Shown here one piece after another: positions 30,229 to 49,561 of a stretch of 49,658 bases of DNA. The notes beneath the pieces are model-generated. The model ran no database searches and was not told the DNA's origin. It was given only the letters and a program-made list of their open reading frames with translations. Source of the stretch: Chloroflexota bacterium (GTDB lineage: Bacteria; Chloroflexota; Limnocylindria; Limnocylindrales; CSP1-4); contig JBJMMQ010000128.1 in NCBI GenBank assembly GCA_045804705.1, positions 1-49,658 on the forward strand. Reading direction: 5' to 3'. The stretch's first letter is position 1. Every line of letters begins with the position of its first letter. A program made the translations under genes and the position numbers.

Positions 30229-30237
30229 GAGCGACGG

Positions 30238-32913: not shown

Positions 32914-33458
32914 GCGAAGGCGCGACGCAGATCGGGATCGCCCGGCTCCGGGCCGGCGCCGTCTCGGGACGGCAGGTCGTTGACGAGCCGGCCGTCCGGG
33001 CGGCACTTGTCGATGTCCCGGACCCGGAGCTTCCGATGTTGTCGGTCGTGGACCTGGGCATCGTCCATCGCGTCGACGTCTCGCCGGCCGATGGCTCGAT
33101 CCGGGTCGAGATCCTGCCCACCTTCGTCGGCTGCCCTGCGCTCGAGCTGATCAAGGACGCGATCGCGACGCGACTCGCCTCGTTCGGACGCCCCGTCGAG
33201 GTCGTCGCGACCTTCGCCGTTCCGTGGACGAGCGACCGGATCACTCCGGCCGGTCGGGCCGCCCTCGAGGATGCCGGCATCGCGCCGCCGGGTCCGACGA
33301 CGGGGACGGCACTGATCGACCTCCAGGCCCGCGTCCCGTGTCCACACTGCGGGTCGCATCGGACCCATCTCGAGAACGTCTTCGGCCCGACCCAGTGCAG
33401 GACGATCCGGTACTGCACGGACTGCCGCCAGCCGTTCGAAGCCATCAAGCCCGTCTGA
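32910..33458 (+). CDS. paaD: Phenylacetate-CoA oxygenase subunit D (SUF/MIP18-like domain plus C-terminal Cys cluster)
   Basis: VPDPELPMLSVVDLGIV...FVGCPAL, with a C-terminal CPHCGS...CTDC. The GTG at 32907 or 32910 overlaps the paaC stop. Confidence 0.8.
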   Translation: MSEGATQIGIARLRAGAVSGRQVVDEPAVRAALVDVPDPELPMLSVVDLGIVHRVDVSPADGSIRVEILPTFVGCPALELIKDAIATRLASFGRPVEVVATFAVPWTSDRITPAGRAALEDAGIAPPGPTTGTALIDLQARVPCPHCGSHRTHLENVFGPTQCRTIRYCTDCRQPFEAIKPV

Positions 33459-33460
33459 CC

Positions 33461-34681
33461 GTGGCCGCTCCCACTGAACCCGTCGGGGTTGTCGGAGCCG
33501 GGACGATGGGCGCCGGTATCGCGCAGCTCGCCCTCGAGGCGGGTCACCCGGTCTGGATCCACGACGTCGATGCTGCGGCCATCGGCCGCGGCAGGGCGCG
33601 GATCCGTACCGGCCTCGAGCGACGGGCAGCGCGGCTCGATCTTGACGCGGACTCGGCCGACGAATGGGTCGAGGGCCGCCTCGGCCGACTCCACGACGCC
33701 GGGAGCCTCACGGACCTCGCCGACGCACAGCTCGATCTCGCCGTGGAGGCCGCGCTCGAGGATCTCGAGGCGAAGAGGGCGATCTTCAAGGCCCTCGACG
33801 CCGCTTTGCCGGCAGGCTCGATCCTCGCAACCAACACGAGCGCACTTTCCGTCGGCGATATCGCCGCCGCAACGACGCACCGAGAGCGCGTCATCGGGCT
33901 TCACTTCTTCAATCCGGCGCCGGTGATGCCGCTCGTCGAGATCGTCGCGCCGGACGCAGCCGACCCGTCCGTCGTCGATCTCGCGACGACGCTCATGACC
34001 GCGTGGGGCAAGGTCCCCGTCCAGTGCCGGGACACGCCAGGTTTCATCGTGAACCGCGTCAACCGACCATTCACGCTCGAAGCGCTCGCGATGCTCGAGG
34101 CGGGCGAGGGGACGATCGAGGGCATCGACGCCGCTGTCCGCGCGGACGGCTTTCCGATGGGCCCCTTCGAGCTGATGGATCTCGTCGGCATCGATATCAA
34201 CCTCGCCGCGGCACGCGGCGTCCACGCCGGGGCGGTCGCTGCCGGCGATCGCGCGGCAGAACGATTCCGGCCGTCGCCGATCCAGGAGCGCCTCGTCGCA
34301 CAGGGACGGCTCGGGCGCAAGACCGAGGGGGGCTTCTATCGGTACGACGATGGTCGCCCGGCGGGCCCTGCGGGCGACCTCGCCATTCGCCCCGGAGACG
34401 GTCTGCCGCTCGACGGCTCGCAGATCGCCATCCGGATCGTCCTCGCCGTCGTCAACGAGGCCTACTGCGCAGCCGGTGACCGAGTCGCCACGAAGGCTGA
34501 CATCGACCTCGCGATGCGCCTCGGGGCGGGTCATCCGAGTGGACCTTTCGCGCGGGCCGCTGCACTCGGCGGCGCCCGGGCCGTCATCACCGCGCTGCGG
34601 GCACAGGCAGACGGCCCTCGCTTCGTCCCGGCACCCGCGCTTCTGGCCGAGGCCGGTCAGCCGGTACCATCGGACTCATGA
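33461..34681 (+). CDS. paaH: 3-hydroxyacyl-CoA dehydrogenase (3-hydroxyadipyl-CoA dehydrogenase-like)
   Basis: The GTG at 33461 gives [15 protein letters not shown] (Rossmann fold). Also present are [20 protein letters not shown] and GFIVNR, plus a duplicated C-terminal domain. Confidence 0.8.
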
Positions 34682-35910
34682 CCCGAGACACACACCGCCC
34701 GCTGCGCGATGCCTGGATCGTCGAAGCCGTGCGTACACCCATCGGCCGTTACGGAGGCGCGCTTGCCAGCGTCCGGCCGGACGATCTCGCAGCTGCGGTC
34801 CTCCGTGCCGTCGTCGATCGTGCCGGCGTCGACCCGGCCATCGTCGAGGACGTCATCCTCGGCTGCGCGAACCAGGCCGGTGAGGACAACCGGAACGTGG
34901 CGCGGATGGCGCTGCTCCTCGCCGACTTTCCCGTCGAGGTCGGCGGCCTGACCGTCAACCGGTTGTGCGGCTCGGGCCTCCAGGCGATCAACACCGCCGC
35001 CCATGCCATCGCGGTCGGGGACGGCGACGTGTTCATCGGCGGGGGCGTGGAATCGATGACCCGGGCGCCCTACGTCCAGCTCAAGGCCGAGGGACCATGG
35101 GACCGCGGCCCGCGGGAGCTTGCCGACACCACTCTCGGCTGGAGGTTCGTCAACCCACGCCTCGCCGAGCGCCACTACCCGTATTCGATGGGCGAGACCG
35201 CCGAGAACGTCGCCGAGCGCTGGGGCGTTTCGCGCGAGCGCCAGGACGCCTTTGCCCTCCAGAGCCATGAACGGGCCGTCGCAGCCATCGACGATGGCCG
35301 ATTCGCCGAACAGATCGTGCCGATCACGGTCCCGCAGCGGAAAGGCGATCCAGTCGTCATCGACCGCGACGAACACCCGCGTGCCGACACGACGCCCGAG
35401 GCGCTCGCCCGGCTACGACCGGCGTTCCGGCCCGACGGAGGCACCGTGACGGCCGGCAACAGCTCGGGCATCAACGACGGCGCGTCGGCGGTGCTCGTCA
35501 TCGAGGCCGACCGTGCCCGCGACCTCGGTCTGCGGCCTCTCGCCCGGGTGGTCTCCACCGCCGTCGCGGGCGTCGACCCGGCGTTCATGGGCATCGGACC
35601 GATCCCCGCGACGCGCAAGGCGCTCGATCGCGCAGGTCTCACCGTCGCGGACCTCGACCTCATCGAGCTCAACGAGGCCTTCGCCTCGCAGTCGCTCGTG
35701 TGCATCGACGAGCTCGGCCTCGATCCGGCGAAGGTCAACGTCAACGGCGGGGCGATCGCGCTCGGTCACCCGCTGGGCATGAGCGGCGGCCGCCTCATCA
35801 CGATGCTCACCCACGAGCTGCGGCGAACCGGCGGACGGTACGGCCTCGCGACGATGTGCATCGGAGTCGGACAGGGGATCGCGACGGTCGTCGAGCGGCT
35901 GGACGACTGA
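34678..35910 (+). CDS. paaJ: 3-oxoadipyl-CoA / acetyl-CoA C-acyltransferase (thiolase)
   Basis: 410 aa with the active-site Cys region [32 protein letters not shown] and CIGVGQG. Confidence 0.85.
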
Positions 35911-38986: not shown

Positions 38987-39760
38987 GTGCCGACGCTCGA
39001 TCCAGCCAGCGCCCCGCGTCTCGTCATCGTCATGCCGGCGTACAACGCGGCACGGACGCTGGAGCGCACCTACGCCGATATCCCGCACGCGCTCGTGCAC
39101 AGGATCATCCTCGTCGACGACGTGTCCCGCGACGAGACTGTCGACATCGCCCGACAGCTCGGTCTCGACGTCATCATCCACAGCCAGAACCGTGGCTACG
39201 GTGGCAACCAGAAGACGTGCTACGACGCGGCTCTCGCCGCAGGCGCGGACATCGTCGTCATGCTCCATCCCGACTACCAGTACGACGCGACGAAGATCCC
39301 GGCGCTGATCGCGCCGATCTCTGACGGTACGCACGACCTGATGCTCGGCAGCCGATTCCTGGGCGACCCGTTGGCTGGTGGCATGCCTCGCTGGAAGTAC
39401 ATCAGCAACCGGTTCCTGACGGGCCTCGAGAACCTGGCGTTCGGTCTCCACCTCTCCGAGTACCACACGGGCCTTCGCGCCTACAGCCGACGATTGCTCG
39501 AGACGGTCCCGTACAGGCTGAACAGCGACGACTTCGTGTTCGACCAGGAGCTGATCGCCCAGGTCGTCGCGGCAGGCATGGCGGGACGGATCGGCGAGGT
39601 GGCGGTCCCGACCCGCTACTTCGAGGAGGCGTCGTCGGTCGGCTTCCGCCGGAGCGTCGTCTACGGCCTGTCGACGCTGCGCGTCGTCGCGCGCTACATG
39701 TTGCATCGCACGCGCGTGCGGCGGTCGGCGAAGCTTGCGGCTCGCCGCCGGCCGGACTGA
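38987..39760 (+). CDS. Family-2 glycosyltransferase (polyprenyl-phosphate sugar transferase-like)
   Basis: From GTG 38987: RLVIVMPAYNAARTL, ILVDDVSRDET (DxD region), HSQNRGYGGN and LHPDYQYD. Confidence 0.8.
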   Translation: MPTLDPASAPRLVIVMPAYNAARTLERTYADIPHALVHRIILVDDVSRDETVDIARQLGLDVIIHSQNRGYGGNQKTCYDAALAAGADIVVMLHPDYQYDATKIPALIAPISDGTHDLMLGSRFLGDPLAGGMPRWKYISNRFLTGLENLAFGLHLSEYHTGLRAYSRRLLETVPYRLNSDDFVFDQELIAQVVAAGMAGRIGEVAVPTRYFEEASSVGFRRSVVYGLSTLRVVARYMLHRTRVRRSAKLAARRRPD

Positions 39761-39767
39761 GGGAGGC

Positions 39768-40793
39768 ATGCGGATCGGTCGCGGGGCGCTCCTCCGCGCA
39801 GTCCTCGGCATCGCGATCAGTCTCTTCGCGATCTGGGTCCTCATCGGCTCGGTCGATCTCGAGGCTGCGTGGACGGTCCTGAGGACGGCCTCGCCGGCGT
39901 GGATCGCGGTGATGCTGATCACCGCCACCATCGACATCGGCGCTCGTGGAGCACGCTGGCGGGCGCTGCTCGCCCCGATCGCGCCGCTGCCGTATCGGCG
40001 TGTCCTCGGGTACACCTACATCGGCTATCTCGCGAACAACGTCCTGCCGGCACGGCTCGGCGAGCTGTACCGGAGCCACGCGCTCGGTGACGGCGAGGGC
40101 GTCAGCCGGACGACTGTCCTCGGGACGGTCGTCGTCGAGAGGGTCGTCGACACGATCATGGTCGTCGCCATCGCCGCGCTCGCGGTGCTCGTCCTGAGCG
40201 TTCGGGGCGTCATGACGAGCGCGGTGTTGCTTGGCCTCGCGTTCGTGAGCCTGCTCGTGATCGCCCTCGCGGTCGGGATGTTCGCGCACCGTCTCCCGGG
40301 CGCCAGCCGGGTCGAGGCCATCATCGCCCGGCGCCCGCGGCTCCTCGAACTGGCCAGGCGACTCCGCGAGGGCCTCGCGGTCGCCGGACGGCCGCGCGTC
40401 GTGGCGATCGCGATCGCGTTCAGCGCCGTCGCGTGGAGCGCGTCGATCCTGACCTTCCTCGCCGCCGGGCAGGCCGTCGGCGTCGAGCTGACGGTGGCCC
40501 AGGCAGCCCTGCTGTGCAGCGGCGTGGCCCTCGTCTCGATCGTTCCTGCAGGTCCGGCGAACGCGGGCACGTTCGAGTTGACCGTGGTGCTGATCGCCGA
40601 GGGCTTCGGGATCTCGCGCGATGACGCGTTCGCGATGGGCCTGCTCGTCCACCTGATGGTCCTCGCGACGACATCGGTCGGTGGGGTCATCGCGCTCGTC
40701 GCCTACCGCCGGCGTCGAGCCATCGCCGCGGCTGATGCCGATCGTCCGGTTGCGGTCGTGCCCAGCGGCGAGGACGCGGACGCACCGGCGTGA
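39768..40793 (+). CDS. Flippase-like / lysylphosphatidylglycerol-synthase TM-region family membrane protein (UPF0104)
   Basis: ATG 39768 follows GGGAGG. It has about 8 TM helices. RWRALL...YIGYLANNVLPARLGELYR is typical of this family. The stop overlaps the next gene start (GTGA). Confidence 0.7.
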   Translation: MRIGRGALLRAVLGIAISLFAIWVLIGSVDLEAAWTVLRTASPAWIAVMLITATIDIGARGARWRALLAPIAPLPYRRVLGYTYIGYLANNVLPARLGELYRSHALGDGEGVSRTTVLGTVVVERVVDTIMVVAIAALAVLVLSVRGVMTSAVLLGLAFVSLLVIALAVGMFAHRLPGASRVEAIIARRPRLLELARRLREGLAVAGRPRVVAIAIAFSAVAWSASILTFLAAGQAVGVELTVAQAALLCSGVALVSIVPAGPANAGTFELTVVLIAEGFGISRDDAFAMGLLVHLMVLATTSVGGVIALVAYRRRRAIAAADADRPVAVVPSGEDADAPA

Positions 40794-42793
40794 CCGGGGA
40801 TCTGCCGCACGTCTTCGAGCCACTGCAGCTGCGCCATCGGACGCTCCGGAGTCGCATCACATTCGGCGCTCATACGGCGAACATGGCCGAGGACGGACTT
40901 CCGGGAGCCCGGCACATCGGCTATTACCGGGAGCGCGCGCTCGGCGGTGCCGGGATGATCGTCGTCGAGCCCGTCCCGGTCCACCGGACGGGTGTCCTGA
41001 CCCGCGGCAACTTCCGCCACGACGATGACGCGATCATCCCGGCGTTTCGTCGGGTCACTGACGCCTGTCGCGACGCGAATCCGGATGTCGTGCTGATCCA
41101 CCAGCTCTATCACGTCGGCCAGCACGGCGACGCCGACAACTCGTTCGCCCCGAACTGGTCGCCGTCCGGGCTCCCGTCCTACCACGACGCTGACGGCAGT
41201 CACGCGATGAGCGAGGCCGAGATCCTCGAGCTCATCGACGGGTTCATCGGCGCGGCGGGGCGCGCGCGGGCGAGCGGCTTCGACGGGATCGAGGTGTTCG
41301 CCGCGTACCACGCCGTCGTCGACCAGTTCTGGGGCACGTGGTCGAACCGGCGGACCGATGGCTGGGGCGGATCGTTCGACGGGAGGATGCGCTTCTCGGC
41401 GGCGATCCTCGGCGGGATCCGGGAGGCCTGCGGCGACGACTTCATCGTCGGGCTCGCAGTCAGTGCGGATCCAGGGTCGCCGGCGATGCTGTCAGTCAGT
41501 GAGCTGTGCGACGTGGTCGCGTGGCACGACGAGCGTGGTCTGATGGATTACGTGACCTGCGGCACGGGCTCCTATTTCGACTTCCACCAGATCATCCCGC
41601 CGTCGCTGTACGACCAGCGGTTGGGGGAACCCTTCGCGGCGGCCCTGAAGGGCATCGTCCAGAACGCGAAGGTCCAGGCCGAGAGCCACATCCGGACGCC
41701 GGCCGCCGCGGAGGAAGTCATCGCGGCCGGGCACGCGGACATGGTCAGCATCGTCCGCGGCCAGATCGCCGACCCGCACCTGGTCGCCAAGGCGCGGGCC
41801 GGCCGCGCCGACGACGTCCGGCCGTGCATCTCGTGCAACCAGCTGTGCTGGGGCCGTCGGTCGCGCGACTACTGGATCTCGTGCCTCGTCAACCCGTCGG
41901 CCGGGCGTGAATGGGAATGGGGCGGCGATCGGTTCGAACCCGCCGCCCTGCCGCGTCGCGTGCTCGTCGTCGGTGGCGGGCCGGCCGGGCTCGAGGCGGG
42001 TCGGGTGGCCGCCGAGCGAGGGCACGTGGTCACGCTCTGGGAACGCGGCGACGCACTTGGCGGCCAGTTCCGGCTGGCCGGTCTCCAGCCGTCGCGGGGA
42101 CAGATCACTGACCTCATCTCGTGGCACGAACGCCGGCTCGCGGCGCTCGGCGTCGACGTCCGCCTGGACTTTGACGCCACCGCGGACGTCGTCGCCGCGT
42201 TCGGGGCGGACGAGGTGGTCGTCGCCACTGGCGCTCGGCCGGCCCGCGCCGGATTCCAGCGGGCTCTGCCGATGGTCGACCGGCTCCCCGGTGTTGAGGG
42301 AGCGGAGGTCGTCGCGATCCACGACGTGCTGGACGGCACGCGCGGCGCCGCGGGCCGTCGTGGGCGACGTGTCCTCGTCCTCGATGACCTCAACGACTGG
42401 CGCGGGCTCGGCACCGCGCTCGCACTCGCCGAGGCCGGGCACGAGACGACCATCGTGACGTCCGCCCCGGTCGTCGCGGGCGGCCTGTTCCACAGCGCCG
42501 CGGACGGTCCACTTCGAGCGCGGTACGCAGCCGCCGGCGGGCGGTCGGTCACGAGCGCGGTGATCACCGGCTGGGAGAAGGGCCGAGCGACACTCAGGTC
42601 GCTCCCGGCCGGCGTGGAAACGACGATCGAGGCCGACACCCTCGTCATCGCCGAGACCGCCATCTCGGAGACCACCCTCGCGACTGACGTCACCGCACGA
42701 GGCATCGACTTCCACCTCATCGGCGACGCCGTCGCTCCCCGTCGGGCAAGCCTCGCCTTCTACGAGGGTCGAGAGCTCGCGCGACGGCTCTGA
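40790..42793 (+). CDS. OYE-like FMN domain + 4Fe-4S + FAD/NAD(P)-binding flavoprotein (2,4-dienoyl-CoA reductase / trimethylamine dehydrogenase family)
   Basis: 667 aa. The N-terminal TIM-barrel reads FEPLQLRHRTLRSRITFGAH, GFDGIEVFAAYHAVVDQFW and NRRTDGWGGS. The Cys motif CISCNQLCWGRRSRDYWISC sits at 41825-41884. A Rossmann motif VLVVGGGPAGLEAG follows. Confidence 0.8.
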   Translation: MTGDLPHVFEPLQLRHRTLRSRITFGAHTANMAEDGLPGARHIGYYRERALGGAGMIVVEPVPVHRTGVLTRGNFRHDDDAIIPAFRRVTDACRDANPDVVLIHQLYHVGQHGDADNSFAPNWSPSGLPSYHDADGSHAMSEAEILELIDGFIGAAGRARASGFDGIEVFAAYHAVVDQFWGTWSNRRTDGWGGSFDGRMRFSAAILGGIREACGDDFIVGLAVSADPGSPAMLSVSELCDVVAWHDERGLMDYVTCGTGSYFDFHQIIPPSLYDQRLGEPFAAALKGIVQNAKVQAESHIRTPAAAEEVIAAGHADMVSIVRGQIADPHLVAKARAGRADDVRPCISCNQLCWGRRSRDYWISCLVNPSAGREWEWGGDRFEPAALPRRVLVVGGGPAGLEAGRVAAERGHVVTLWERGDALGGQFRLAGLQPSRGQITDLISWHERRLAALGVDVRLDFDATADVVAAFGADEVVVATGARPARAGFQRALPMVDRLPGVEGAEVVAIHDVLDGTRGAAGRRGRRVLVLDDLNDWRGLGTALALAEAGHETTIVTSAPVVAGGLFHSAADGPLRARYAAAGGRSVTSAVITGWEKGRATLRSLPAGVETTIEADTLVIAETAISETTLATDVTARGIDFHLIGDAVAPRRASLAFYEGRELARRL

Positions 42794-42853
42794 TCGTCCT
42801 CGCAGCCGTACCATGTGGGTCCGCGGATCTGCGCTCCCACTCGAGGTGATCAG

Positions 42854-44401
42854 ATGGCAGTCCCCGACCTCGAACACCCGTCGGCGCGACGCGGTCGTGC
42901 CGCACGCCAGACCGAGCGCTTGGCACGCCACATGGACACCGTCCCGTACCTGACCCGGCGGCTCGCGCCAGTCGAGGTGATCTCCACCGAAGGCCTCGAG
43001 CAGATCGAGGCGAACGCCGACACGCTCCTCGAGGAGGTCGGCATCGAGATCGTCAACTTCCCCGAGGCGACCGAGATCTTCCGCAACGCTGGCGCTGACG
43101 TGACAGGCCAGCGCGTCCGGTTCCCCCGCGGCATGTGCCGCCAGCTCGTCCAGGCGACGGCGCCACGCGTGTTCACCCAGGTCGCGCGAAACGCCGCCCG
43201 GAGCGTGCAGATCGGCGACCCGTACATGGTCCTCGTTCCGACCTACGGCTCGCCGTTCATCCACAACCTCGACGACGGACGTCGCTACGCCACGATCGAG
43301 GACTTCCGGAACTTCGTGAAGCTGACCTACACGAGCCGGACGCTCCACCACGGCGGCGGGACCCTGTGCGAACCGGTCGACCTGCCCGTCAACAAGCGTC
43401 ACTTCGAGATGGTCTACAGCCACATCCGGTACTCGGATCGCGCGTTCATGGGTTCGGTGACTCACCCGAGCCGGGCGCAGGACTCCGTCGACATGGCACG
43501 CATCGTGTTCGGCGCGGACCGGATGGAGCGCGAGCACGTGATCATGGGCCTCGCGAACGCGAACTCGCCCATGTCCTGGGACTTCAACATGCTGGGCTCG
43601 GCCAAGGTCTACGCCGAGAACAACCAGATCATGCTCATCACGCCGTTCATCCTCGGCGGCGCGATGGCTCCGGTCACGGTCGCGGCACAGGCGACCCAGA
43701 CGCTGGCCGAGGCGCTCGCCGGGATGGCGTTCTGTCAGATCGTCCGGCCCGGCGCGCCGGTCATCTTCGGATCGTTAGCGTCGTCGATGTCGATGCAGTC
43801 GGGAGCTCCGACGTTCGGGACCCCGGAACCCCAGCTCGTGCTGTTCGTCCTCGCCGCCCTGTCGCGACGCCTCGGCGTCCCGTTCCGCAGCGGCGGCAAC
43901 TTCACGGCCTCCAAGCTGCCCGACTACCAGGCGGCGTACGAGAGCGCGATCAGCTACATGGCGACGATGCAGGCCGGGGTCAACTTCAACCTGCACACGG
44001 CGGGCTGGCTCGAGGGCGGGCTGGCGATCGGCTACGAGAAGTTCATGCTCGACGAGGACCAGGCGTCGATGACGGAGGCATACGTCAAGGGCGTGGATGT
44101 CACCGACAACGGCTATGCCCTCGATGCGATGCTCGGCGGCGGCCCCGGCCAGCACTTCCTTGGCTCGCCGCACACCCTGGCCAATTTCGAGAACGCGTTC
44201 TGGCGGTCGGAGCTGTCGAACAACGACTCCTTCGAGCAGTGGGAGATCGACGGCGGCCTCGATGCCGCGCAGCGGGCGAACCGTCGTTGGAAGAAGCGCC
44301 TGGCCGAGTACGAGCAGCCGCCGCTCGACGACAGTGTCCACGAGGAGCTCGTCTCCTGGATGGACCAGCGCAAGGGGAGCTTCCCCGACTCTGACGTCTG
44401 A
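42854..44401 (+). CDS. Trimethylamine methyltransferase (MttB) superfamily protein, non-pyrrolysine type
   Basis: 515 aa from ATG 42854 (GAGGTGA RBS). Its full length and layout resemble MttB/MtgB-type betaine:corrinoid methyltransferases, judging from segments such as LEQIEANADTLLEEVGIEI, ITPFILGGAMAPVT, SGAPTFGTPE and GYEKFMLDEDQ. There is no in-frame TAG. Confidence 0.7.
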   Translation: MAVPDLEHPSARRGRAARQTERLARHMDTVPYLTRRLAPVEVISTEGLEQIEANADTLLEEVGIEIVNFPEATEIFRNAGADVTGQRVRFPRGMCRQLVQATAPRVFTQVARNAARSVQIGDPYMVLVPTYGSPFIHNLDDGRRYATIEDFRNFVKLTYTSRTLHHGGGTLCEPVDLPVNKRHFEMVYSHIRYSDRAFMGSVTHPSRAQDSVDMARIVFGADRMEREHVIMGLANANSPMSWDFNMLGSAKVYAENNQIMLITPFILGGAMAPVTVAAQATQTLAEALAGMAFCQIVRPGAPVIFGSLASSMSMQSGAPTFGTPEPQLVLFVLAALSRRLGVPFRSGGNFTASKLPDYQAAYESAISYMATMQAGVNFNLHTAGWLEGGLAIGYEKFMLDEDQASMTEAYVKGVDVTDNGYALDAMLGGGPGQHFLGSPHTLANFENAFWRSELSNNDSFEQWEIDGGLDAAQRANRRWKKRLAEYEQPPLDDSVHEELVSWMDQRKGSFPDSDV

Positions 44402-44408
44402 CGGTCCG

Positions 44409-46463
44409 GTGGCCTCGGCGGACCCGCTCCTCCAGCCGTTCCAGCTCCGCCACCTCACGTTCCGCAATCGGATCATGAGCACGGCGCACGAGCCGGCCTA
44501 CGCGGAGGACGCGAAGCCGAAGCTGCGCTACCAGCTCTACCAGGAGGAGAAGGCGAAGGGCGGCATCGGGCTGTCGATGTTCGGTGGCTCGACGAACGTG
44601 GCGCCCGACTCGCCGCCGATCTTCGGCCAGCTGTACGCCGGCGACGACGACATCATCCCGTACTTCCAGCAGCTCGCCGACCGGATGCACGCGCACGGCG
44701 CCGCAACGATGATCCAGCTCACGCACCTCGGCCGGCGGACGGTCTGGGACGACGGCGACTGGCTGCCGACGATCTCGGCGTCGTCGGTCCGGGAGCCCGC
44801 GCACCGGTCGTTCCCCAAGGAGATGGAGCTCGCCGACATCCGTCGGGTCGTCGCGTCGTACGCGGCGGCGGCCCGGCGGTGCAAGGAGGGCGGGCTCGAC
44901 GGCCTCGAGATCGAGGCCTACGGGCATCTCCCAGACCAGTTCTGGTCGCCGCTCGTGAACAGGCGATCGGACGAGTACGGCGGTTCGTTGGCGAACCGGA
45001 TGCGCTTCTCGATCGAGGTGCTGGAGGCGATCCGCGCAGCCGTTGGGTCGGACTTCGTGGTCGGCATCCGGATGACCGGCGGCGAGGACGTCGAGGGTGG
45101 ACTCACCGAGGAAGACGGGTTCGAGATCGCCCGGACGCTCGCCCGCACCGGGACGATCGACTTCATCAACATCGTCAAGGGTTCGATCGCGACCGACGAG
45201 GCGATCTCGCACGTCATCCCGGGTCTCGGCACGCCGATGGGCCCGGCCCTCAAGTTCGCTGGCCGCTTCCGCGAGCGGGTGGACCTGCCGATCTTCCACG
45301 CCGCGAGGATCGCGGACGTCGCGACCGCGCGCTACGCGATCGCGGAGGGCCTGGTCGACATGGTCGGGATGACGCGGGCCCACATGGCCGACCCGCATAT
45401 CGTCCGGAAGCTCGAGGCGGGAGAGGCGGACCGAATCAGGCCCTGTGTCGGTGCCTCGATGTGCATCAACCGGCTCTATCTCGGCCTCGAGGCGCTGTGC
45501 ATCCATAACCCCGCGACCGGCCGCGAGGAGACGATCCCGCACGTCGTGACGCGATCGGACGGGCCGGCGCGCCGCGTCGTGGTCGTCGGCGGCGGGCCCG
45601 CTGGCCTGGAGGCGGCACGGGTCGCAGGGGAGCGGGGCCATTCGGTCGTGTTGCTGGAGGCGGCGGACCACCCGGGCGGGCAAGTCGTGCTCGCGGCCCG
45701 CGCCACCGCGCGACGGGGCGACCTCATCGGGATCGTCGACTGGCTCGTCTCCGAATGCCGCCACGTCGGCGTCGACGTGCGGACGGGCGTCCTCGCAGAC
45801 GCTGCGACGGTCGCGGCGCTGGATCCGGACGTCGTCATCGTCGCGACCGGCGGTCATCCGCGTCTGCCAGCGTTGACTGAGGGCGACGGCCTCGTCGTCT
45901 CGACCTGGGACGTGATCGGTGGCGCCGTGGCGCCCTCGCGAGGGCAGGTGCTGGTCTACGACGACCATGGAACGGAGGACGCGCTGTCCTGCGCCGAGCG
46001 GATGGTCGCCGCAGGCTCCGACGTCGAGATCGTGTCACCGGACCGGTATATCGGGCAGGAGGTGAACGGGACTGCGTATCCGCGCTACTTGACCTCCTTC
46101 TACGAGGCGGGCGTCCGGATGACACCCGATCATCGGCTAACGGCTGTTCGCCGCCGCCGCGACGATCGCCGGCTCGAGGTCGACCTCTGGAACGACTACA
46201 CGCGTTCGACTGTGCAACGGGTAGTCGATCAGGTCGTCGTCGAGCACGGAACGCTGCCGAATGACGAGCTCTACGTCGAACTCCAGTTGGGCTCGTCGAA
46301 CAACGGCGAGCTGGACCTCGACGCCTTCATCGATCGCCGGCCCCAGGAGATCGTCACCGACCCCGCCGGCAGATACCAGCTGTTCCGGATCGGCGACGCC
46401 GTCGCAAGCCGCTCGATCCACGCGGCGATCTACGAGGCACGCCGGCTGGCGATGGTTCTCTAG
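44409..46463 (+). CDS. OYE-like FMN + FAD/NAD(P)-binding flavoprotein, N-methyl-L-proline demethylase (StcD)-like; Cys motif degenerate
   Basis: 684 aa from GTG 44409. LQPFQLRHLTFRNRIMSTAHEP, GLDGLEIEAYGHLPDQFWSP, NRRSDEYGGS and VVVVGGGPAGLEAA. Only three Cys (CVGASMCINRLYLGLEALC) occupy the position of the 4Fe-4S motif. Confidence 0.75.
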   Translation: MASADPLLQPFQLRHLTFRNRIMSTAHEPAYAEDAKPKLRYQLYQEEKAKGGIGLSMFGGSTNVAPDSPPIFGQLYAGDDDIIPYFQQLADRMHAHGAATMIQLTHLGRRTVWDDGDWLPTISASSVREPAHRSFPKEMELADIRRVVASYAAAARRCKEGGLDGLEIEAYGHLPDQFWSPLVNRRSDEYGGSLANRMRFSIEVLEAIRAAVGSDFVVGIRMTGGEDVEGGLTEEDGFEIARTLARTGTIDFINIVKGSIATDEAISHVIPGLGTPMGPALKFAGRFRERVDLPIFHAARIADVATARYAIAEGLVDMVGMTRAHMADPHIVRKLEAGEADRIRPCVGASMCINRLYLGLEALCIHNPATGREETIPHVVTRSDGPARRVVVVGGGPAGLEAARVAGERGHSVVLLEAADHPGGQVVLAARATARRGDLIGIVDWLVSECRHVGVDVRTGVLADAATVAALDPDVVIVATGGHPRLPALTEGDGLVVSTWDVIGGAVAPSRGQVLVYDDHGTEDALSCAERMVAAGSDVEIVSPDRYIGQEVNGTAYPRYLTSFYEAGVRMTPDHRLTAVRRRRDDRRLEVDLWNDYTRSTVQRVVDQVVVEHGTLPNDELYVELQLGSSNNGELDLDAFIDRRPQEIVTDPAGRYQLFRIGDAVASRSIHAAIYEARRLAMVL

Positions 46464-48647
46464 CTAGGAGCCTGTGGCGTCCGGACCCGCTGGCGCGACC
46501 TCGGACTCCGCCTCCTGAACTGATTCGGCGAGCTCGTCGACGGACTGGCCGGTCGTCTCCGCGGCCTTGGCGACCGCGGCCTCGACGTCGCCAGCACCTT
46601 CGGTCGTGCGCTGGCGCTGGAGCGTCCGCAACTCGTCGACCGGGATATGGCAGGCCATTTGGTGCCCCGGCTCGACCTCGACGAGCGGTGGGACCGTCAC
46701 CTCGCACAGGCCCGCGATCGCCCGATGACAGCGCGTGTTGAAGACGCAGCCCGAAGGCGGGTTCGCCGGGCTCGGGATCTCGCCTTCGAGCAGGATCCTC
46801 GCGCGCGCCTCGCCGTCGACGTTCGGGACGGCCGAGAGGAGCGCTTCGGTGTATGGATGGTTCGGGCCGCGGAAGACAGTCTCGGAGTCGCCGACCTCCA
46901 TGATCCGACCGAGGTACAGGACGGCGATCCGATCCGCGAGGTAGCGCACGACGCCGAGGTCATGCGAGATCAGCAGGTAGCTCGTCTTGCTCCTGAGCTG
47001 GAGCTCCGACAGGAGATTGAGGATGGCCGCCTGGACCGACACATCCAATGCGCTCGTCGGCTCGTCTGCGACCACGATCCGTGGGTCACCGGCGAAGGCG
47101 CGTGCGATGGCCAGACGCTGCTTGAGCCCGCCCGACAGCTGGCGCGGCTTCAGGTCGAGATGGCGCTGGGTGAGCCGCAGGTCCGCGGCGAGCTTGTCGA
47201 CCCGCTCGTCGACAGCCTTGCCACGGAGGCCGGTGAGCTTCGAGACGGAGCGCTGCAGGATGTGCCGTGCCGTCCAGCCCCGGTTGAGCGCCGAATCGGG
47301 GTTCTGGAAGACCATCTGGATCGAGCGCTTGTCGTCCGTCGGGCGCTGCGTCGACAGCGGCGCGAGAGCGTGCTCGCCGAGCTCGAGATTCGACCCAGCG
47401 TCGGGGCGTTCGATGCCGAGGATCGTCTTCGCCAGCGTCGACTTGCCCGAGCCCGACTCGCCCACGAGCCCGAGGGTCTCGCCGTCGAACAGTTCCAGGT
47501 TGACCTTGACCAGCGCCGGGACGTCGTGTCCGCTCTGGTGGAACGTCTTGGAGACGTCATCCAGCGCGAGCACCTGGTCTCCGTGGACCGTCTCCTGACC
47601 GACGATCGACGGCGGCTCGGTGATCTCATCCAAGCGGTCGCGGTGGTGGCAACGCGTCCATTGGCCTCCGCCGACATCGACGACGGGCGGCACGACGGTC
47701 CGACACAGCTCATCGGCCAACGGGCAGCGATCGACGAAGACGCATGTCGGCAGGTCTGTCCCGATCTGGGGCAGGTTGCCCGGGATCGTCGAAAGCGCAC
47801 GCTCCGACTTGCGGACGCCGCGCCGGGGGAGCGACCGCAGGAGACCGAGCGTGTATGGGTGTTGGGGATTCGCGAAGACGCTCGCCGCATCGCCCTCTTC
47901 GACGATCTTGCCGGCGTACATCACTCCGACCCGGTCACACAGGGTCCGGATGACGCCCAGGTTGTGGGCGATGAGGAGGACCGCCGCGTTCGTTTCGGCC
48001 TGGAGGCTCCGCACCAGGTCCAGGACGCTCGCCTCGACGGTCGCGTCGAGCCCGGTCGTCGGCTCGTCGAGGACCAACAGCTTCGGATCGGAGGCAAGGG
48101 CGATGGCGATGACGACGCGTTGCTGCATCCCGCCCGAGAGCTGATATGGATAGCGCTGCGCGACTTCCTCGGGGTCCGCGATCTGGACGCGTTGAAGCGC
48201 CTTCAGCGCGCTTTCCTGCGCCTGTTGCCGGCTCTGACCGAGGATCGTGAAGGCCTCGGCGACCTGCGGGCCGATCTTGGTCGTCGGGTTGAGGGCGGCG
48301 CCTGGGTCCTGGTAGACCATCGAGGCGTGGTGGATCCGGAACTGCCGGACCTCCTCATCGCTCATCTTCGTGATGTCGCTGCCGGCAACGAGGATCCGAC
48401 CGCCGGTGATGACGCCATTGCGGGGCAGGTAGCGAACGGCGGCGTATGCGGTCGTCGACTTGCCGCAGCCCGACTCACCGACCAGCCCGTATGACTCGCC
48501 GGGCCGCACCTCGAATGACACGCCTCGGAGGACGGGCCGTCGGATTCCGCGGACCACATAGGAGAGTGACAGGTCCTCGACCCTGAGTGCCGCCTGCGGT
48601 TCGGGAGGTATGGCGCTCGTTGGGATCGGCGCGATCTCGGTCGTCAT
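46464..48647 (-). CDS. Fused tandem ABC ATPase of a Dpp/Opp (peptide/opine/nickel) type importer
   Basis: 727 aa from ATG 48647, which overlaps the permease stop. There are two Walker A motifs (GESGCGKST, GESGSGKST) and two signatures (LSGGMQQRV, LSGGLKQRL). Two oligo_HPY-like C-terminal regions each carry 4 Cys. An acidic ~55-aa tail ends the protein. Confidence 0.85.
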   Translation of the reverse strand: MTTEIAPIPTSAIPPEPQAALRVEDLSLSYVVRGIRRPVLRGVSFEVRPGESYGLVGESGCGKSTTAYAAVRYLPRNGVITGGRILVAGSDITKMSDEEVRQFRIHHASMVYQDPGAALNPTTKIGPQVAEAFTILGQSRQQAQESALKALQRVQIADPEEVAQRYPYQLSGGMQQRVVIAIALASDPKLLVLDEPTTGLDATVEASVLDLVRSLQAETNAAVLLIAHNLGVIRTLCDRVGVMYAGKIVEEGDAASVFANPQHPYTLGLLRSLPRRGVRKSERALSTIPGNLPQIGTDLPTCVFVDRCPLADELCRTVVPPVVDVGGGQWTRCHHRDRLDEITEPPSIVGQETVHGDQVLALDDVSKTFHQSGHDVPALVKVNLELFDGETLGLVGESGSGKSTLAKTILGIERPDAGSNLELGEHALAPLSTQRPTDDKRSIQMVFQNPDSALNRGWTARHILQRSVSKLTGLRGKAVDERVDKLAADLRLTQRHLDLKPRQLSGGLKQRLAIARAFAGDPRIVVADEPTSALDVSVQAAILNLLSELQLRSKTSYLLISHDLGVVRYLADRIAVLYLGRIMEVGDSETVFRGPNHPYTEALLSAVPNVDGEARARILLEGEIPSPANPPSGCVFNTRCHRAIAGLCEVTVPPLVEVEPGHQMACHIPVDELRTLQRQRTTEGAGDVEAAVAKAAETTGQSVDELAESVQEAESEVAPAGPDATGS

Positions 48648-49561
48648 TCGTTCAGCACCGACTGCAGCGAGTCCGCGATCAGGTTGACTGCGACGACGAC
48701 GCTGGCGATCGCGAGTGCCGGGAACAGCGTCGGCCACCAGGCCCCGCTGATCATGTTGTTGTACTCCTGGCTCACGGTCAGCCCCCAGTCGGCCGACGGT
48801 GGCTGGATGCCGACGCCGAGGAACGACAGCGTCGCGATGGTGAAGATCGCGTAGCCGAAGCGCACGGTCATCTCGACGACGGTCGGCCCGAGGACGTTCG
48901 GGAAGATCTCGCGGGTCAGGATGAACGGCCCCGATTCGCCGCGGAGCTTCGCCGCGGTCACGTAGTCGAGCTGCCTCTCCGAGAGCACCGCGGAGCGGAC
49001 TGTTCGAGCGACGATCGGCGTGAACAGGATCCCCACGACGCAGACGACCACGAGCGGCGACGTTCCGAGGACGACAAGCGTCAGCAATGCGACAAGGACG
49101 ACCGGCAGGGCGAGGAACGCCTCCACGATGCGGCTCAGGACGTCGTCGATGGTCCCTCGGTAGTAGCCCATGACGAGGCCGAGCACCGTGCCCGCGGCCA
49201 CTCCGAGCATCGCAGCGAGTGGAGCGAAGAGAAGCACGTCTCGGGATCCGACCATCACGCGCGACAGGACATCCCGACCGAGCCGGTCCGTGCCCATCAG
49301 GTGCTCAGGGCTCGGTGGCAGGTGGCCGCCGGTGAAGTAGTTGAAGGGGTCATACGGAGTGATCCGCTCCCCGAGGATCGCGGTGATGATCCATCCGATC
49401 ACGACGATGTTGCCGATGATGAAGGCGGGCCGCCGGACGAGGACGATCAGGCGTTCGCGCCGAGCGCTGGCCCGCTGGGCGCGCGACGCCGCCGTGGCCC
49501 CCACGGGGACCTCTGCCGGCGGCAGGCCCTGGCCCGCCGCGATCGAAGCGGACGGGTCCAT
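48644..49561 (-). CDS. ABC transporter permease (DppC/OppC-like)
   Basis: 305 aa with 6 TM helices. The EAA-like loop reads LDYVTAAKLRGESGPFILTREIFPN. Confidence 0.8.
   Translation of the reverse strand: MDPSASIAAGQGLPPAEVPVGATAASRAQRASARRERLIVLVRRPAFIIGNIVVIGWIITAILGERITPYDPFNYFTGGHLPPSPEHLMGTDRLGRDVLSRVMVGSRDVLLFAPLAAMLGVAAGTVLGLVMGYYRGTIDDVLSRIVEAFLALPVVLVALLTLVVLGTSPLVVVCVVGILFTPIVARTVRSAVLSERQLDYVTAAKLRGESGPFILTREIFPNVLGPTVVEMTVRFGYAIFTIATLSFLGVGIQPPSADWGLTVSQEYNNMISGAWWPTLFPALAIASVVVAVNLIADSLQSVLNE

What the first reader, a model, noticed from the sequence alone, without database searches (positions are those of the whole stretch)
40790..46463. Non-pyrrolysine MttB-family methyltransferase sandwiched between two TMADH/OYE-type flavoproteins, with no corrinoid partner in the window
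Three tightly spaced co-directional genes, with gaps of 60 and 7 nt, form this module. The first is an OYE/4Fe-4S/FAD flavoprotein. The second is a 515-aa MttB-superfamily protein with no in-frame TAG. The third is an N-methylproline-demethylase-like flavoprotein. All characterised non-Pyl MttB homologues that I know of (glycine betaine, proline betaine, carnitine and gamma-butyrobetaine methyltransferases) work in anaerobes. They hand the methyl group to a dedicated corrinoid protein that is normally encoded next door, along with a methylcobalamin:THF/CoM methyltransferase and a reductive activase. None of those partners is present in the 10 kb on either side. The neighbours instead belong to the flavoprotein family that oxidatively demethylates tertiary and secondary amines. 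This suggests a hybrid route for a quaternary amine. In that route the MttB-like step would remove the first methyl and flavoprotein demethylases the next ones, for example proline betaine to N-methylproline to proline. The convergent Dpp/Opp-type importer is a candidate uptake system. The methyl acceptor of the MttB-like enzyme in such a context is unknown.
Basis: partly seen in the sequence, partly recalled or inferred. Interest (0 to 1): 0.72.

Follow-up and report, generated by a model that had tools for sequence, protein, structure and literature searches.

The report
Satellite betaine methyltransferase module, Chloroflexota
Three soil-bacterium genes for stripping methyl groups off a betaine look as if they lack their vitamin-B12 carrier protein, but close relatives encode that carrier about 70 kb away, so this fits a pathway type published in 2025.

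Summary
Three co-directional genes sit at 40790-46463 with gaps of 60 and 7 nt: an OYE/Fe-S/FAD flavoprotein, a 515-aa non-pyrrolysine MttB-family protein, and a second such flavoprotein. A convergent Opp-type ABC importer follows. No corrinoid, pterin-binding or RamA gene lies anywhere in the 49.6-kb window.

The main inference, an orphan MttB with an unknown methyl acceptor, does not hold.
- The window comes from a Candidatus Limnocylindria-like Chloroflexota genome, not Actinomycetota.
- Its MttB belongs to the clade of the aerobic cobalamin-dependent MtgBCD system (Mausz et al. 2025). In that system, dispersed MtgB paralogues share one corrinoid core.
- Orthologues 72-77% identical in Acidimicrobiia/Actinomycetota MAGs sit directly behind mtgC-DUF1638-mtgD-ramA.
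- At least 15 Limnocylindria-type MAGs that carry this locus also carry that operon.
- In the closest relative (MttB 95% identical) the operon ends 69.6 kb upstream on the same contig and strand. That would be about 29 kb beyond the window's left edge.

The locus is best read as a satellite module: importer, MtgB-type methyltransferase and DgcA/HpbA-family N-methyl amino-acid demethylases. Its substrate, glycine betaine or proline betaine, is unresolved. The full triad occurs in only 16 of 56 related loci, whereas the MttB-importer pair is nearly invariant.

The parts
40790..42793 (+). Flavoprotein 1: 667 aa with an OYE-like FMN domain, a canonical 4-Cys Fe-S motif (C-x2-C-x3-C-x11-C) and an FAD/NAD(P) domain. 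It is a distant paralogue of gene 3 (31% identity).
   Evidence: Pfam gives Oxidored_FMN at 1e-45 plus Pyr_redox_2. The Cys motif is shown. It is 55-58% identical to an 'FAD-dependent oxidoreductase' that co-occurs with StcD/HpbA in Shinella, Rhizobium and Pseudosulfitobacter plasmids. It lies upstream of the MttB in 46 of 62 related loci.
42854..44401 (+). Non-pyrrolysine MttB-superfamily methyltransferase, 515 aa. It is a 'satellite' paralogue of the aerobic-type MtgB and the predicted substrate:corrinoid methyltransferase (MT1).
   Evidence: PF06253 scores 7e-207. PDB 4yyc (putative trimethylamine methyltransferase; the S. meliloti attribution is from memory, not a tool result) scores 2e-184, and D. 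hafniense MtgB (2qne/9yce) about 1e-108. In the tree the protein is sister to core-operon MtgB. Three of the four glycine-betaine-contacting residues are kept (Y131, R345, H381), and W385 is invariant in the clade.
44409..46463 (+). Flavoprotein 3: 684 aa, a member of the DgcA/HpbA/StcD family of N-methyl amino-acid demethylases. Its Fe-S motif has only 3 Cys (C-x5-C-x11-C), as in HpbA.
   Evidence: Pfam is. Identities: 53-55% to Paracoccus HpbA and R. etli StcD, 58% to the MttB-adjacent flavoprotein of Shinella sp. PSBB067, 56% to the Azospirillum protein in a gbcAB-dgcAB-etf cluster, and 47% to Ralstonia DgcA. The position of TMADH Cys30 is Glu, and the second Fe-S Cys is Ala. It is present in 19 of 63 related loci.
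46464..48737 (-). Fused double ATPase (DppD/DppF type) of an Opp/Dpp-family ABC importer. It is convergent with gene 3, and the two stop codons abut with no spacer.
   Evidence: Pfam gives two ABC_tran and two oligo_HPY domains. The gene is conserved downstream of the MttB in 60 of 61 related loci.
48644..49561 (-). Permease of the same ABC importer. In related loci the second permease and the family-5 solute-binding protein lie beyond the right end of the window.
   Evidence: BPD_transp_1 scores 6e-28. In L001 and L053 the operon continues with a second permease and an SBP_bac_5 protein.
39555..40793 (+). Upstream neighbour: a membrane protein with an LPG_synthase_TM domain. Its stop codon overlaps the start of flavoprotein 1 (GTGA). 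It is probably part of the chromosomal backbone and not of the pathway.
   Evidence: PF03706 scores 7e-45. The overlap is shown. The gene is still present upstream in related loci that lack flavoprotein 1.

Best explanation
The locus is a satellite substrate module of an aerobic, cobalamin-dependent betaine demethylation system of the MtgBCD type.

Proposed mechanism:
1. The Opp-type ABC importer takes up a carboxylated quaternary amine. Glycine betaine is the most likely substrate and proline betaine the main alternative.
2. The MttB-family enzyme transfers one N-methyl group to the Co(I) corrinoid protein MtgC.
3. MtgD passes the methyl group on to tetrahydrofolate.
4. RamA (with DUF1638) re-reduces oxidised cobalamin.
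5. The two flanking flavoproteins (DgcA/HpbA/StcD family and a paralogue) oxidatively remove the remaining N-methyl group or groups from the tertiary or secondary amine product.

MtgC, MtgD and RamA are not encoded in the window. They come from a core operon, mtgC-DUF1638-mtgD-ramA-mtgB-metF, elsewhere on the chromosome, as in Ruegeria pomeroyi and Eubacterium limosum, where several MttB paralogues share one corrinoid protein.

Shown here: family memberships; clade placement; physical linkage of orthologues to the core operon; presence of the core operon in the same MAGs and contigs as the satellite locus in relatives.

Inferred: presence of the core operon in this exact genome; use of MtgC by this paralogue; the substrate; the role and order of the flavoproteins.
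For: - MttB family membership over the full length. The closest solved structure is 4yyc, 'putative trimethylamine methyltransferase', at E = 2e-184.
- The S. meliloti orthologue (57% identity) lies in a cluster with a cobalamin-binding protein, DUF1638, a methyl-THF:cobalamin methyltransferase, MetF, an ASKHA/RamA protein and bmt. This is the cluster that PMC12478193 interprets as MtgBCDE.
- The Azoarcus orthologue (61%) lies next to folD, ETF-QO, a choline-binding protein, betA and betB.
- Nine loci (L065, L066, L068, L072-L074, L076, L078, L079; MttB 72-77% identical) carry MtgD and RamA homologues, eight of them also MtgC, immediately upstream of the orthologue on the same strand.
- Limnocylindria-type MAGs have the full core operon.
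- Satellite locus and core operon are paired in the same MAG in at least 15 cases. Five of these are confirmed by coordinates on the same contig, 65-80 kb apart with the core always upstream on the same strand. A further six rest on matching contig lengths.
- In the closest relative (contig_5528; MttB 95% identical) the order is B12-binding_2+B12-binding, DUF1638, Pterin_bind, RACo, MTTB, MTHFR, ending 69.6 kb upstream of the satellite.
- Residues Y97, R312 and H348 of D. hafniense MtgB are conserved. Only 3 alignment columns separate the satellite copies from all core copies (residue roles from PMC13080624).
- Flavoprotein 3 is 53-58% identical to HpbA/StcD-type and DgcA-context proteins. HpbA function was shown genetically in PMC3950512.
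- The pair MttB plus HpbA-like flavoprotein recurs under a divergent LysR regulator in Shinella sp. PSBB067.
- An Opp-type betaine importer has a precedent in Prb of S. meliloti (cited in bioRxiv 10.64898/2026.09.15.751800).
Against: - The core operon is not in the window, and the window's own genome could not be searched. Its presence rests on synteny with relatives.
- Nothing shows that this paralogue, as opposed to the core-operon MtgB, docks to MtgC.
- The fourth glycine-betaine-contacting residue of D. hafniense MtgB (F356) is Gly here, as in the whole aerobic clade.
- The core cluster already has its own MtgB and a DMGDH-like enzyme, so a second glycine betaine route would be redundant.
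- No ETF or DgcB partner genes for the flavoproteins were found in the window.
- The flavoproteins are dispensable in many related loci.
- In PMC12478193 the assignment of individual MtgB paralogues to glycine betaine rests on proteomics, not on enzyme assays.
Confidence: 0.7

Rival explanations
1. The mechanism is the same (corrinoid-dependent, shared MtgC core), but the satellite module is specific for proline betaine or a related cyclic betaine. The route would be proline betaine to N-methylproline (MttB) to proline (HpbA-like flavoprotein 3). The MttB step would replace the O2-dependent Rieske demethylase HpbBC/Stc2.
For: - Flavoprotein 3 is 53-55% identical over its full length to proteins annotated HpbA/StcD and shares their 3-Cys motif.
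- Homologues of flavoprotein 1 (55-58%) sit in stc/hpb-like clusters with StcD, a ProU-type transporter, and P5C-reductase-like, Ldh-family, proline-racemase-family and ornithine-cyclodeaminase genes.
- The core cluster already covers glycine betaine, with its own MtgB and a DMGDH-like enzyme.
Against: - The satellite MttB differs from all core MtgB copies at only 3 fixed columns, none of them a known substrate contact.
- It is only 38% identical to D. hafniense MtgB, and no MtpB sequence was available for comparison.
- An Azospirillum homologue of flavoprotein 3, at 56% identity, lies in a glycine betaine/dimethylglycine (gbcAB-dgcAB-etf) cluster, so identity does not favour N-methylproline.
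- Proline betaine needs only one follow-up demethylase, but there are two flavoproteins.
- The MR_MLE gene near the locus in relatives is not HpbD-like.
Confidence: 0.3
2. The MttB-like enzyme is an orphan that works without a dedicated corrinoid protein. It would pass the methyl group to an unknown acceptor, for example directly to THF or to a flavoprotein, in a new hybrid route.
For: - No corrinoid, pterin-binding or RamA gene lies within 42 kb upstream or 5 kb downstream in the window.
- None lies within 10 kb on either side in the 71 related satellite loci.
Against: - The protein is nested within a clade whose other members are physically linked to mtgC-mtgD-ramA.
- The same MAGs and contigs carry that operon.
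- Unlinked MtgB paralogues served by a single corrinoid core are the reported model in R. pomeroyi (PMC12478193) and, according to that paper, in Eubacterium.
- Every characterised MttB-superfamily enzyme is a corrinoid methyltransferase (PMC13080624).
Confidence: 0.05
3. The three genes are neighbours by accident of genome rearrangement and are not one pathway. The flavoproteins would be FadH/enoate-reductase-type enzymes unrelated to amine demethylation, and only the MttB and the importer would belong together.
For: - The triad is complete in only 16 of 56 related loci, while the MttB-importer pair is nearly invariant.
- The best PDB matches of both flavoproteins are 2-naphthoyl-CoA reductase and 2,4-dienoyl-CoA reductase, ahead of TMADH and histamine dehydrogenase.
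- The best NCBIfam hits are a mycofactocin-associated OYE family, below its cut-off.
Against: - The genes are co-directional with spacings of 60 and 7 nt.
- Flavoprotein 3 is more than 50% identical over its full length to HpbA/StcD/DgcA-context proteins, far above its similarity to FadH.
- An independent MttB-flavoprotein pairing occurs in Shinella.
- Homologues of both flavoproteins co-occur in betaine catabolic clusters.
Confidence: 0.1

Closest known systems
Aerobic MtgBCD(E) glycine betaine methyltransferase / split methionine synthase of Ruegeria pomeroyi, Phaeobacter inhibens and Sinorhizobium meliloti (Mausz et al. 2025, PMC12478193)
   Same: - The methyltransferase is a pfam06253 protein from the same clade as the S. 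meliloti cluster member (55-57% identity; PDB 4yyc at 2e-184).
- The mtgB paralogue is unlinked to a shared core of MtgC, DUF1638, MtgD and RamA.
- Follow-up oxidative demethylases are encoded nearby.
- The host is aerobic.
- The core operon in relatives has the same gene content, including MetF and MtgE-like genes.
   Different: - The host phylum is Chloroflexota (Limnocylindria-like).
- The follow-up enzymes next to the satellite are DgcA/HpbA-type three-domain flavoproteins, not DMGDH-type enzymes.
- The importer is Opp-type, not BCCT or ProU.
- The genome has both a core MtgB and this satellite, which are about 65% identical.
- The substrate has not been established.
Proline betaine / hydroxyproline betaine catabolism: Hpb of Paracoccus denitrificans (PMC3950512) and Stc of rhizobia
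   Same: Gene 3 is 53-55% identical to HpbA/StcD and shares the 3-Cys motif. Homologues of gene 1 occur in the same stc/hpb-like clusters.
   Different: - The first demethylation in Hpb/Stc is done by a Rieske oxygenase (HpbB/C, Stc2). Here an MttB-family methyltransferase sits in that position.
- There is no HpbD-like racemase, no ETF and no formaldehyde-detoxification genes in the window.
GbcAB-DgcAB glycine betaine / dimethylglycine demethylation cluster of Pseudomonas, Ralstonia and Azospirillum
   Same: Gene 3 is 47% identical to the Ralstonia DgcA-context protein and 56% identical to the Azospirillum one. Chemically both remove methyl groups one after another from a betaine.
   Different: There is no DgcB, EtfAB or GbcAB here. 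An MttB-family methyltransferase replaces the Rieske GbcAB step.
Anaerobic MttB-superfamily systems: MtgB of Desulfitobacterium hafniense; MtpB, MtcB, MtyB and MthB of Eubacterium limosum
   Same: Same superfamily and, from the 4yyc/2qne matches, presumably the same TIM-barrel fold. R312 and H348 (carboxylate contacts) and Y97 are conserved. Several paralogues are served by one corrinoid protein.
   Different: - Identity to D. hafniense MtgB is only 38%.
- F356 is replaced, and a clade-specific Trp lies one helical turn earlier.
- The host is aerobic.
- The partner genes are not adjacent.
Trimethylamine dehydrogenase (TMADH) and histamine dehydrogenase
   Same: Both have the three-domain architecture of an OYE-like FMN domain, an Fe-S motif and an ADP/FAD-binding domain, and match at E = 1e-47 to 1e-52.
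   Different: - The Cys30 that links FMN covalently in TMADH is Glu in gene 3. In gene 1 it appears to be Thr, judged only by reading the sequence against a remembered TMADH sequence.
- Gene 3 has 3 of the 4 cluster cysteines.
- Both genes score better against 2-naphthoyl-CoA reductase and FadH than against TMADH.

Membership tests
MttB superfamily (Pfam PF06253), non-pyrrolysine branch | Full-length match to the MTTB profile | tested here: met
   E = 7e-207, covering profile positions 2-499 of 500.
MttB superfamily (Pfam PF06253), non-pyrrolysine branch | No in-frame UAG (pyrrolysine) codon, and not an equivalog of true TMA methyltransferase | tested here: met
   The ORF from 42815 to 44401 has no internal stop. 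TIGR02369 scores 233.6 bits against a cut-off of 525.
Aerobic MtgBCD system (PMC12478193) | The MtgB component clusters with MtgB proteins that are physically linked to mtgC and mtgD | tested here: met
   Linkage in S. meliloti is. Nine Acidimicrobiia/Actinomycetota/unclassified MAG loci carry MtgD and RamA homologues directly upstream of the orthologue, eight of them also MtgC.
Aerobic MtgBCD system (PMC12478193) | The same genome encodes the corrinoid protein MtgC (B12-binding, DxHxxG), the pterin-binding MtgD, RamA and DUF1638 | tested here: inconclusive
   These genes are absent from the window, and the window's own genome could not be searched. The feature is met in relatives: at least 15 MAGs pair the satellite locus with the core operon. 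In the closest relative the operon ends 69.6 kb upstream on the same contig, and its MtgC has DIHDIG.
Aerobic MtgBCD system (PMC12478193) | Glycine betaine is the methyl donor | not testable with these tools
   Only indirect evidence exists. Three of the four D. hafniense MtgB contact residues are conserved. The Azoarcus orthologue lies next to betA and betB.
HpbA/StcD/DgcA N-methyl amino-acid demethylases | Three-domain flavoprotein with full-length similarity to members characterised genetically or assigned by gene context | tested here: met
   This applies to gene 3: 53-58% identity over about 99% of its length to HpbA/StcD-annotated and DgcA-context proteins, with the shared 3-Cys motif. 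Gene 1 is only 27-30% identical, so it is a separate paralogous group.
HpbA/StcD/DgcA N-methyl amino-acid demethylases | Neighbouring electron-transfer partners (EtfAB, and DgcB for DgcA) | tested here: not met
   No ETF or DgcB-like gene was found among the window ORFs. These partners are present in the Rhizobium, Ralstonia and Azospirillum clusters.
Trimethylamine dehydrogenase (TMADH) proper | Cys30 forming 6-S-cysteinyl-FMN, and a four-Cys 4Fe-4S motif | tested here: not met
   In gene 3 the Cys30 position is Glu and the second cluster Cys is Ala. Gene 1 has all four Cys, but its Cys30 position appears to be Thr. That reading comes from inspecting the sequence against a remembered TMADH sequence and was not aligned with a tool.
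Mycofactocin-system FadH/OYE oxidoreductase 2 (TIGR03997) | Score above the curated cut-off | tested here: not met
   The scores are 520 and 521 bits against a cut-off of 793.

The most novel reading that the evidence does not exclude
The satellite MttB has diverged from the core glycine betaine enzyme to demethylate a different betaine, most plausibly proline betaine. That would give an aerobic soil Chloroflexota an O2-independent, cobalamin-dependent first step feeding HpbA-type flavoprotein demethylases. Such a route, MttB in place of the Rieske HpbBC/Stc2 step, has not been described in an aerobe and recurs as an MttB-flavoprotein pair in Shinella.
Probability: 0.3. Interest if true: 0.55.

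Novelty: new member of a known kind. Interest (0 to 1): 0.35.

Why it matters
- Genes annotated 'mttB' are very abundant in soil metagenomes. MAG surveys often count such genes as markers of trimethylamine use or anaerobic methylotrophy, as for Limnocylindria in PMC11264602.
- This analysis indicates that the Limnocylindria genes are betaine methyltransferases of an aerobic, B12-dependent system.
- It extends the MtgBCD model from marine Proteobacteria to a dominant soil Chloroflexota lineage.
- It implies a cobalamin demand for osmolyte turnover in soil.
- It gives a concrete set of genes (satellite MttB, two flavoproteins, an Opp-type binding protein) for testing substrate range.
- It does not reveal a new methyl-transfer chemistry.

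Tried and rejected
- **Exact-sequence look-up.** The window's MttB is not on record, so the window's own genome could not be inspected.
- **Row limits.** The genome-collection scans stop at 600 candidate rows. Absence of mtgC or ramA hits for a given MAG therefore means nothing. I worked around this by matching RamA hits to contig lengths and confirmed one case by coordinates.
- **MR_MLE as HpbD.** In related loci an MR_MLE gene lies beyond the importer. I considered it a possible HpbD (proline betaine racemase). The PDB search places it nearest an uncharacterised protein (4ggb/4hpn) and acid-sugar dehydratases, so I dropped it as evidence for proline betaine.
- **DgcA versus HpbA by identity.** This was inconclusive for gene 3: Azospirillum DgcA-context 56%, Shinella MttB-adjacent 58%, HpbA/StcD 53-55%, Ralstonia DgcA 47%.
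- **Other family assignments.** Mycofactocin-OYE and TMADH assignments were rejected.
- **Specificity-determining positions.** Only 3 columns separate satellite from core MtgB, and none is at a known contact, so sequence gives no case for a changed substrate.
- **Regulatory signals.** No cobalamin riboswitch or other Rfam family was found in the window. No sigma-70-like promoter or intrinsic terminator was found in 39000-47500. This is uninformative for a 70% G+C Chloroflexota genome.
- **Not attempted.** Comparison of the importer's binding protein with S. meliloti PrbA (no named reference sequence was at hand). Structure prediction (not needed for the question).

Full report
**1. What is in the sequence**

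- Flavoprotein 1: 40790-42793, GTG start, 667 aa.
- MttB: 42854-44401, ATG start preceded by GGTGA, 515 aa.
- Flavoprotein 3: 44409-46463, GTG start, 684 aa.

The junctions were read directly. The stop codon of an upstream LPG_synthase_TM membrane-protein gene overlaps the first start (GTGA). The gaps inside the triad are 60 and 7 nt. The stop of gene 3 (TAG, 46461-46463) abuts the stop of the convergent ABC ATPase gene (46464-46466).

Pfam gives MTTB (PF06253) at E = 7e-207 over the whole profile. Both flanking proteins have Oxidored_FMN plus Pyr_redox_2. The MttB ORF has no internal stop and scores far below the cut-off of the pyrrolysine TMA-methyltransferase equivalog.

Downstream and convergent are a fused DppD/F-type ATPase and a permease of an Opp/Dpp-type ABC importer. 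In related loci this operon continues with a second permease and a family-5 solute-binding protein.

I called genes across the whole window by third-position G+C and scanned 42 ORFs with Pfam. No B12-binding, pterin-binding or RamA/RACo protein is present. Rfam finds nothing, so there is no cobalamin riboswitch.

**2. Where it comes from**

A scan of species-representative genomes with the MttB found 282 relatives. The best 64 or so (80-95% identity) are MAGs labelled Candidatus Limnocylindrales/Limnocylindria, 'uncultured Chloroflexia' or Chloroflexota. The next tier (72-77%) is Acidimicrobiia/Actinomycetota and unclassified MAGs. The window is therefore Chloroflexota, not Actinomycetota.

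The protein family is very large in environmental data.

**3. Is the triad conserved?**

I ran tblastn of the window's proteins against the fetched loci. Among 71 loci with MttB at 79% identity or more:
- the importer lies within 8 kb downstream in 60 of 61;
- flavoprotein 1 lies upstream in 46 of 62;
- flavoprotein 3 lies downstream in 19 of 63.

Of the 56 loci with both flanks available, 16 have the full triad, 27 have flavoprotein 1 only, 3 have flavoprotein 3 only and 10 have neither. The stable unit is MttB plus importer. The flavoproteins are frequent but optional additions.

**4. The corrinoid partner**

The literature search turned up Mausz et al. 2025 (PMC12478193). In aerobic Ruegeria pomeroyi, glycine betaine demethylation needs a corrinoid protein MtgC and a methyl-THF methyltransferase MtgD, shown by knockouts. 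These are shared with a split methionine synthase. The pfam06253 MtgB candidates, RamA and DUF1638 are encoded at separate loci. In S. meliloti the same genes are clustered. Up to seven pfam06253 paralogues per genome are suggested to feed the same core.

Several results place the window's MttB in that system.
- It matches PDB 4yyc, 'putative trimethylamine methyltransferase', at E = 2e-184. I recall this entry as S. meliloti, but that is from memory.
- The S. meliloti orthologue (57% identity) lies beside a cobalamin-binding protein, DUF1638, a methyl-THF:cobalamin methyltransferase, MetF, an ASKHA (RamA) protein and bmt.
- The Azoarcus sp. KH32C orthologue (61%) lies beside folD, ETF-QO, a choline-binding protein, betA and betB.

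I used the S. meliloti proteins as tblastn queries against the fetched loci. Nine loci (L065, L066, L068, L072-L074, L076, L078, L079; MttB 72-77% identical) carry MtgD and RamA homologues directly upstream of the orthologue on the same strand, and eight of them also carry MtgC. None of the Limnocylindria-type satellite loci has these genes within 10 kb on either side.

I then searched the genome collection with MtgC and RamA. Limnocylindria-type MAGs do carry a complete core operon, mtgC-DUF1638-mtgD-ramA-mtgB. Around it lie a divergent IclR regulator, a DMGDH-like protein (DAO+FAO_M+GCV_T), an aldehyde dehydrogenase, and MtgE-like S-methyltransferase and MTHFR genes.

Matching MAG and contig names between the two sets of loci gives these pairs:

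| MAG | Satellite locus | Core-operon locus | Relationship |
|---|---|---|---|
| MFD06742.bin.1.113 | L064 | L099 | same MAG |
| VAR_78_metabat_359 | L062 | L108 | same MAG |
| MFD02840.bin.3.631 | L035 | L228 | same MAG |
| CTOTU41422 | L009 | L234 | same MAG |
| SMAG_U4538 | L067 | L267 | same MAG |
| MFD09368.bin.2.48 | L013 | L166 | same contig |
| MFD06742.bin.2.250 | L080 | L230 | same contig |
| MFD02242.bin.2.56 | L021 | L231 | same contig |
| MFD00392.bin.4.906 | L016 | L232 | same contig |

In the four same-contig cases the core operon lies 65-80 kb upstream of the satellite on the same strand.

To get round this I searched the protein database with two RamA sequences and matched the 'longest contig' values to the contigs of satellite loci. 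Matches were L031 and L001, L005, L007, L011, L015 and L019.

I confirmed the closest relative by coordinates. On contig_5528 (560,294 bp; satellite MttB 95% identical to the window's) the gene order is IclR(-), B12-binding_2+B12-binding (with DIHDIG), DUF1638, a small Virulence_fact protein, Pterin_bind, RACo/RamA, MTTB (65% identical to the window's MttB) and MTHFR. This operon ends 69.6 kb upstream of satellite flavoprotein 1. If the window is syntenic, the operon lies about 29 kb beyond its left end.

**5. What kind of MttB is it?**

A neighbour-joining tree puts the window's protein in a tight 'satellite' clade (81-95% identity). That clade is sister to the actinobacterial-type core MtgB (69-75%). 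Next come the Limnocylindria core MtgB (62-66%), then Azoarcus and S. meliloti. A second Limnocylindria paralogue and D. hafniense MtgB are at 37-38%.

The satellite is thus closer to actinobacterial core copies than to the core copy of its own lineage. That suggests horizontal acquisition or an old duplication.

The residues that bind glycine betaine in D. hafniense MtgB are Y97, R312, H348 and F356 (PMC13080624). They map to Y131, R345, H381 and Gly389 in the window's protein. Every member of the aerobic clade, including the S. meliloti cluster member, has this pattern, plus an invariant Trp (W385) one helical turn before the F356 position.

Only three alignment columns separate all satellite copies from all core copies, and none is a known contact. 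Sequence therefore gives no sign of a changed substrate, although the test is weak.

**6. The flavoproteins**

Both belong to the three-domain OYE/Fe-S/FAD family. The best solved relatives are 2-naphthoyl-CoA reductase and FadH, followed by histamine dehydrogenase and TMADH.

Gene 3 is not a TMADH. The FMN-linking Cys30 position is Glu, and the second cluster Cys is Ala. It shares the resulting 3-Cys motif with HpbA. Its identities to other members of the family are:

| Comparison protein | Identity |
|---|---|
| Paracoccus HpbA, R. etli StcD | 53-55% |
| Shinella sp. PSBB067 flavoprotein directly downstream of an MttB homologue, under a divergent LysR regulator | 58% |
| Azospirillum oryzae protein in a gbcAB-dgcAB-etfAB (glycine betaine/dimethylglycine) cluster | 56% |
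| Ralstonia DgcA-context protein | 47% |

[quoted passage not shown] Gene 3 is therefore a member of the DgcA/HpbA/StcD family of N-methyl amino-acid demethylases, but its substrate cannot be called from identity.

Gene 1 is 31% identical to gene 3 and has a canonical four-Cys motif. It is 55-58% identical to an unnamed 'FAD-dependent oxidoreductase' that co-occurs with StcD/HpbA in betaine clusters of Shinella, Rhizobium and Pseudosulfitobacter.

**7. Mechanism and substrate**

The best-supported reading is a satellite module of the MtgBCD type.
1. An Opp-type importer takes up a betaine. The precedent is Prb of S. meliloti, which transports proline betaine, choline and glycine betaine (cited in bioRxiv 10.64898/2026.09.15.751800).
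2. The satellite MttB methylates the shared MtgC.
3. MtgD passes the methyl group to THF.
4. RamA reactivates the cofactor.
5. The flavoproteins remove the remaining methyl group or groups.

For glycine betaine, three methyl groups would match three enzymes, and the MttB looks like the core MtgB. For proline betaine, the arguments are that the core cluster already has an MtgB and a DMGDH-like enzyme, and that homologues of both flavoproteins occur in stc/hpb clusters.

My estimate is roughly 45% glycine betaine, 30% proline betaine or a related cyclic betaine, and 25% another betaine. The MR_MLE gene found beyond the importer in some relatives is not HpbD-like and gives no help.

**8. Comparison with what is known, and verdict**

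Dispersed MttB paralogues without adjacent partners are part of that model.

What is new here is modest:
- the lineage, an abundant soil Chloroflexota class whose 'mttB' genes are currently read as TMA or anaerobic-methylotrophy markers (for example PMC11264602);
- the pairing with DgcA/HpbA-type flavoproteins and an Opp-type importer;
- the coexistence of core and satellite copies in one genome.

I classify the locus as a new member of a known kind and score its interest at 0.35.

The main caveat is that the core operon is shown in relatives, including one with 95% MttB identity and the same local synteny, but not in the window's own genome.

Noticed in passing
window 46461-46466: The stop codon of flavoprotein 3 (TAG) and the stop codon of the convergent ABC ATPase gene (CTA on the + strand) abut with no intergenic base, inside the palindrome CTAGCTAG. 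No terminator-like structure was found nearby.
   Followed up: partly
window 39555-40793: An LPG_synthase_TM-domain membrane-protein gene ends 4 nt inside the start of flavoprotein 1 (GTGA overlap). It stays upstream in related loci that lack flavoprotein 1, so it looks like chromosomal backbone into which the catabolic genes were inserted.
   Followed up: partly
L038, L047, L052, L053, L062 (e.g. L053 17391-21528): In several relatives, beyond the importer, lie a divergent MR_MLE (enolase-superfamily) gene, a second MttB paralogue (37-39% identical, with Gly at the Y97 position) and a DAO-family oxidoreductase. This may be another betaine module with a different substrate. The MR_MLE is not HpbD-like.
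   Followed up: partly
tree; L065-L079 versus L096-L232: The satellite MttB of Limnocylindria is closer (69-75% identity) to the core-operon MtgB of Acidimicrobiia/Actinomycetota MAGs than to the core-operon MtgB of Limnocylindria itself (62-66%). This suggests horizontal acquisition or an old duplication.
   Followed up: partly
P0089: One database protein of 878 aa, on a 310-kb contig, carries both the MTTB and Oxidored_FMN domains. It may be a genuine MttB-flavoprotein fusion or a gene-call or frameshift artefact.
   Followed up: no
L232 10606-12726: The Limnocylindria core cluster encodes a single protein combining a homocysteine S-methyltransferase domain and an MTHFR domain. A second S-methyltransferase gene follows it.
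   Followed up: no
window 11189-12739 and 18103-21393 (- strand): An aldehyde dehydrogenase, a glutamine-synthetase-like protein (Gln-synt_C) and an adjacent amino-acid permease. This combination resembles gamma-glutamylation routes for amine catabolism.
   Followed up: no
window 27570-32149 and 34678-35910: Two enoyl-CoA hydratases, PaaA/PaaC- and PaaB-family genes and a thiolase form part of an aerobic phenylacetate-type catabolic cluster. This is consistent with an aerobic lifestyle.
   Followed up: no
window 13320-15548 (+) and 32873-34675 (-): Two long ORFs (742 and 600 aa) have coding-like third-position G+C but no Pfam match at E <= 1e-5.
   Followed up: no
L318 (Pannonibacter phragmitetus plasmid): A homologue of flavoprotein 3 (54%) lies near an Opp-type ABC importer with a fused ATPase and two proline-iminopeptidase-family hydrolases. 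This is another association of this flavoprotein family with an Opp-type transporter.
   Followed up: no
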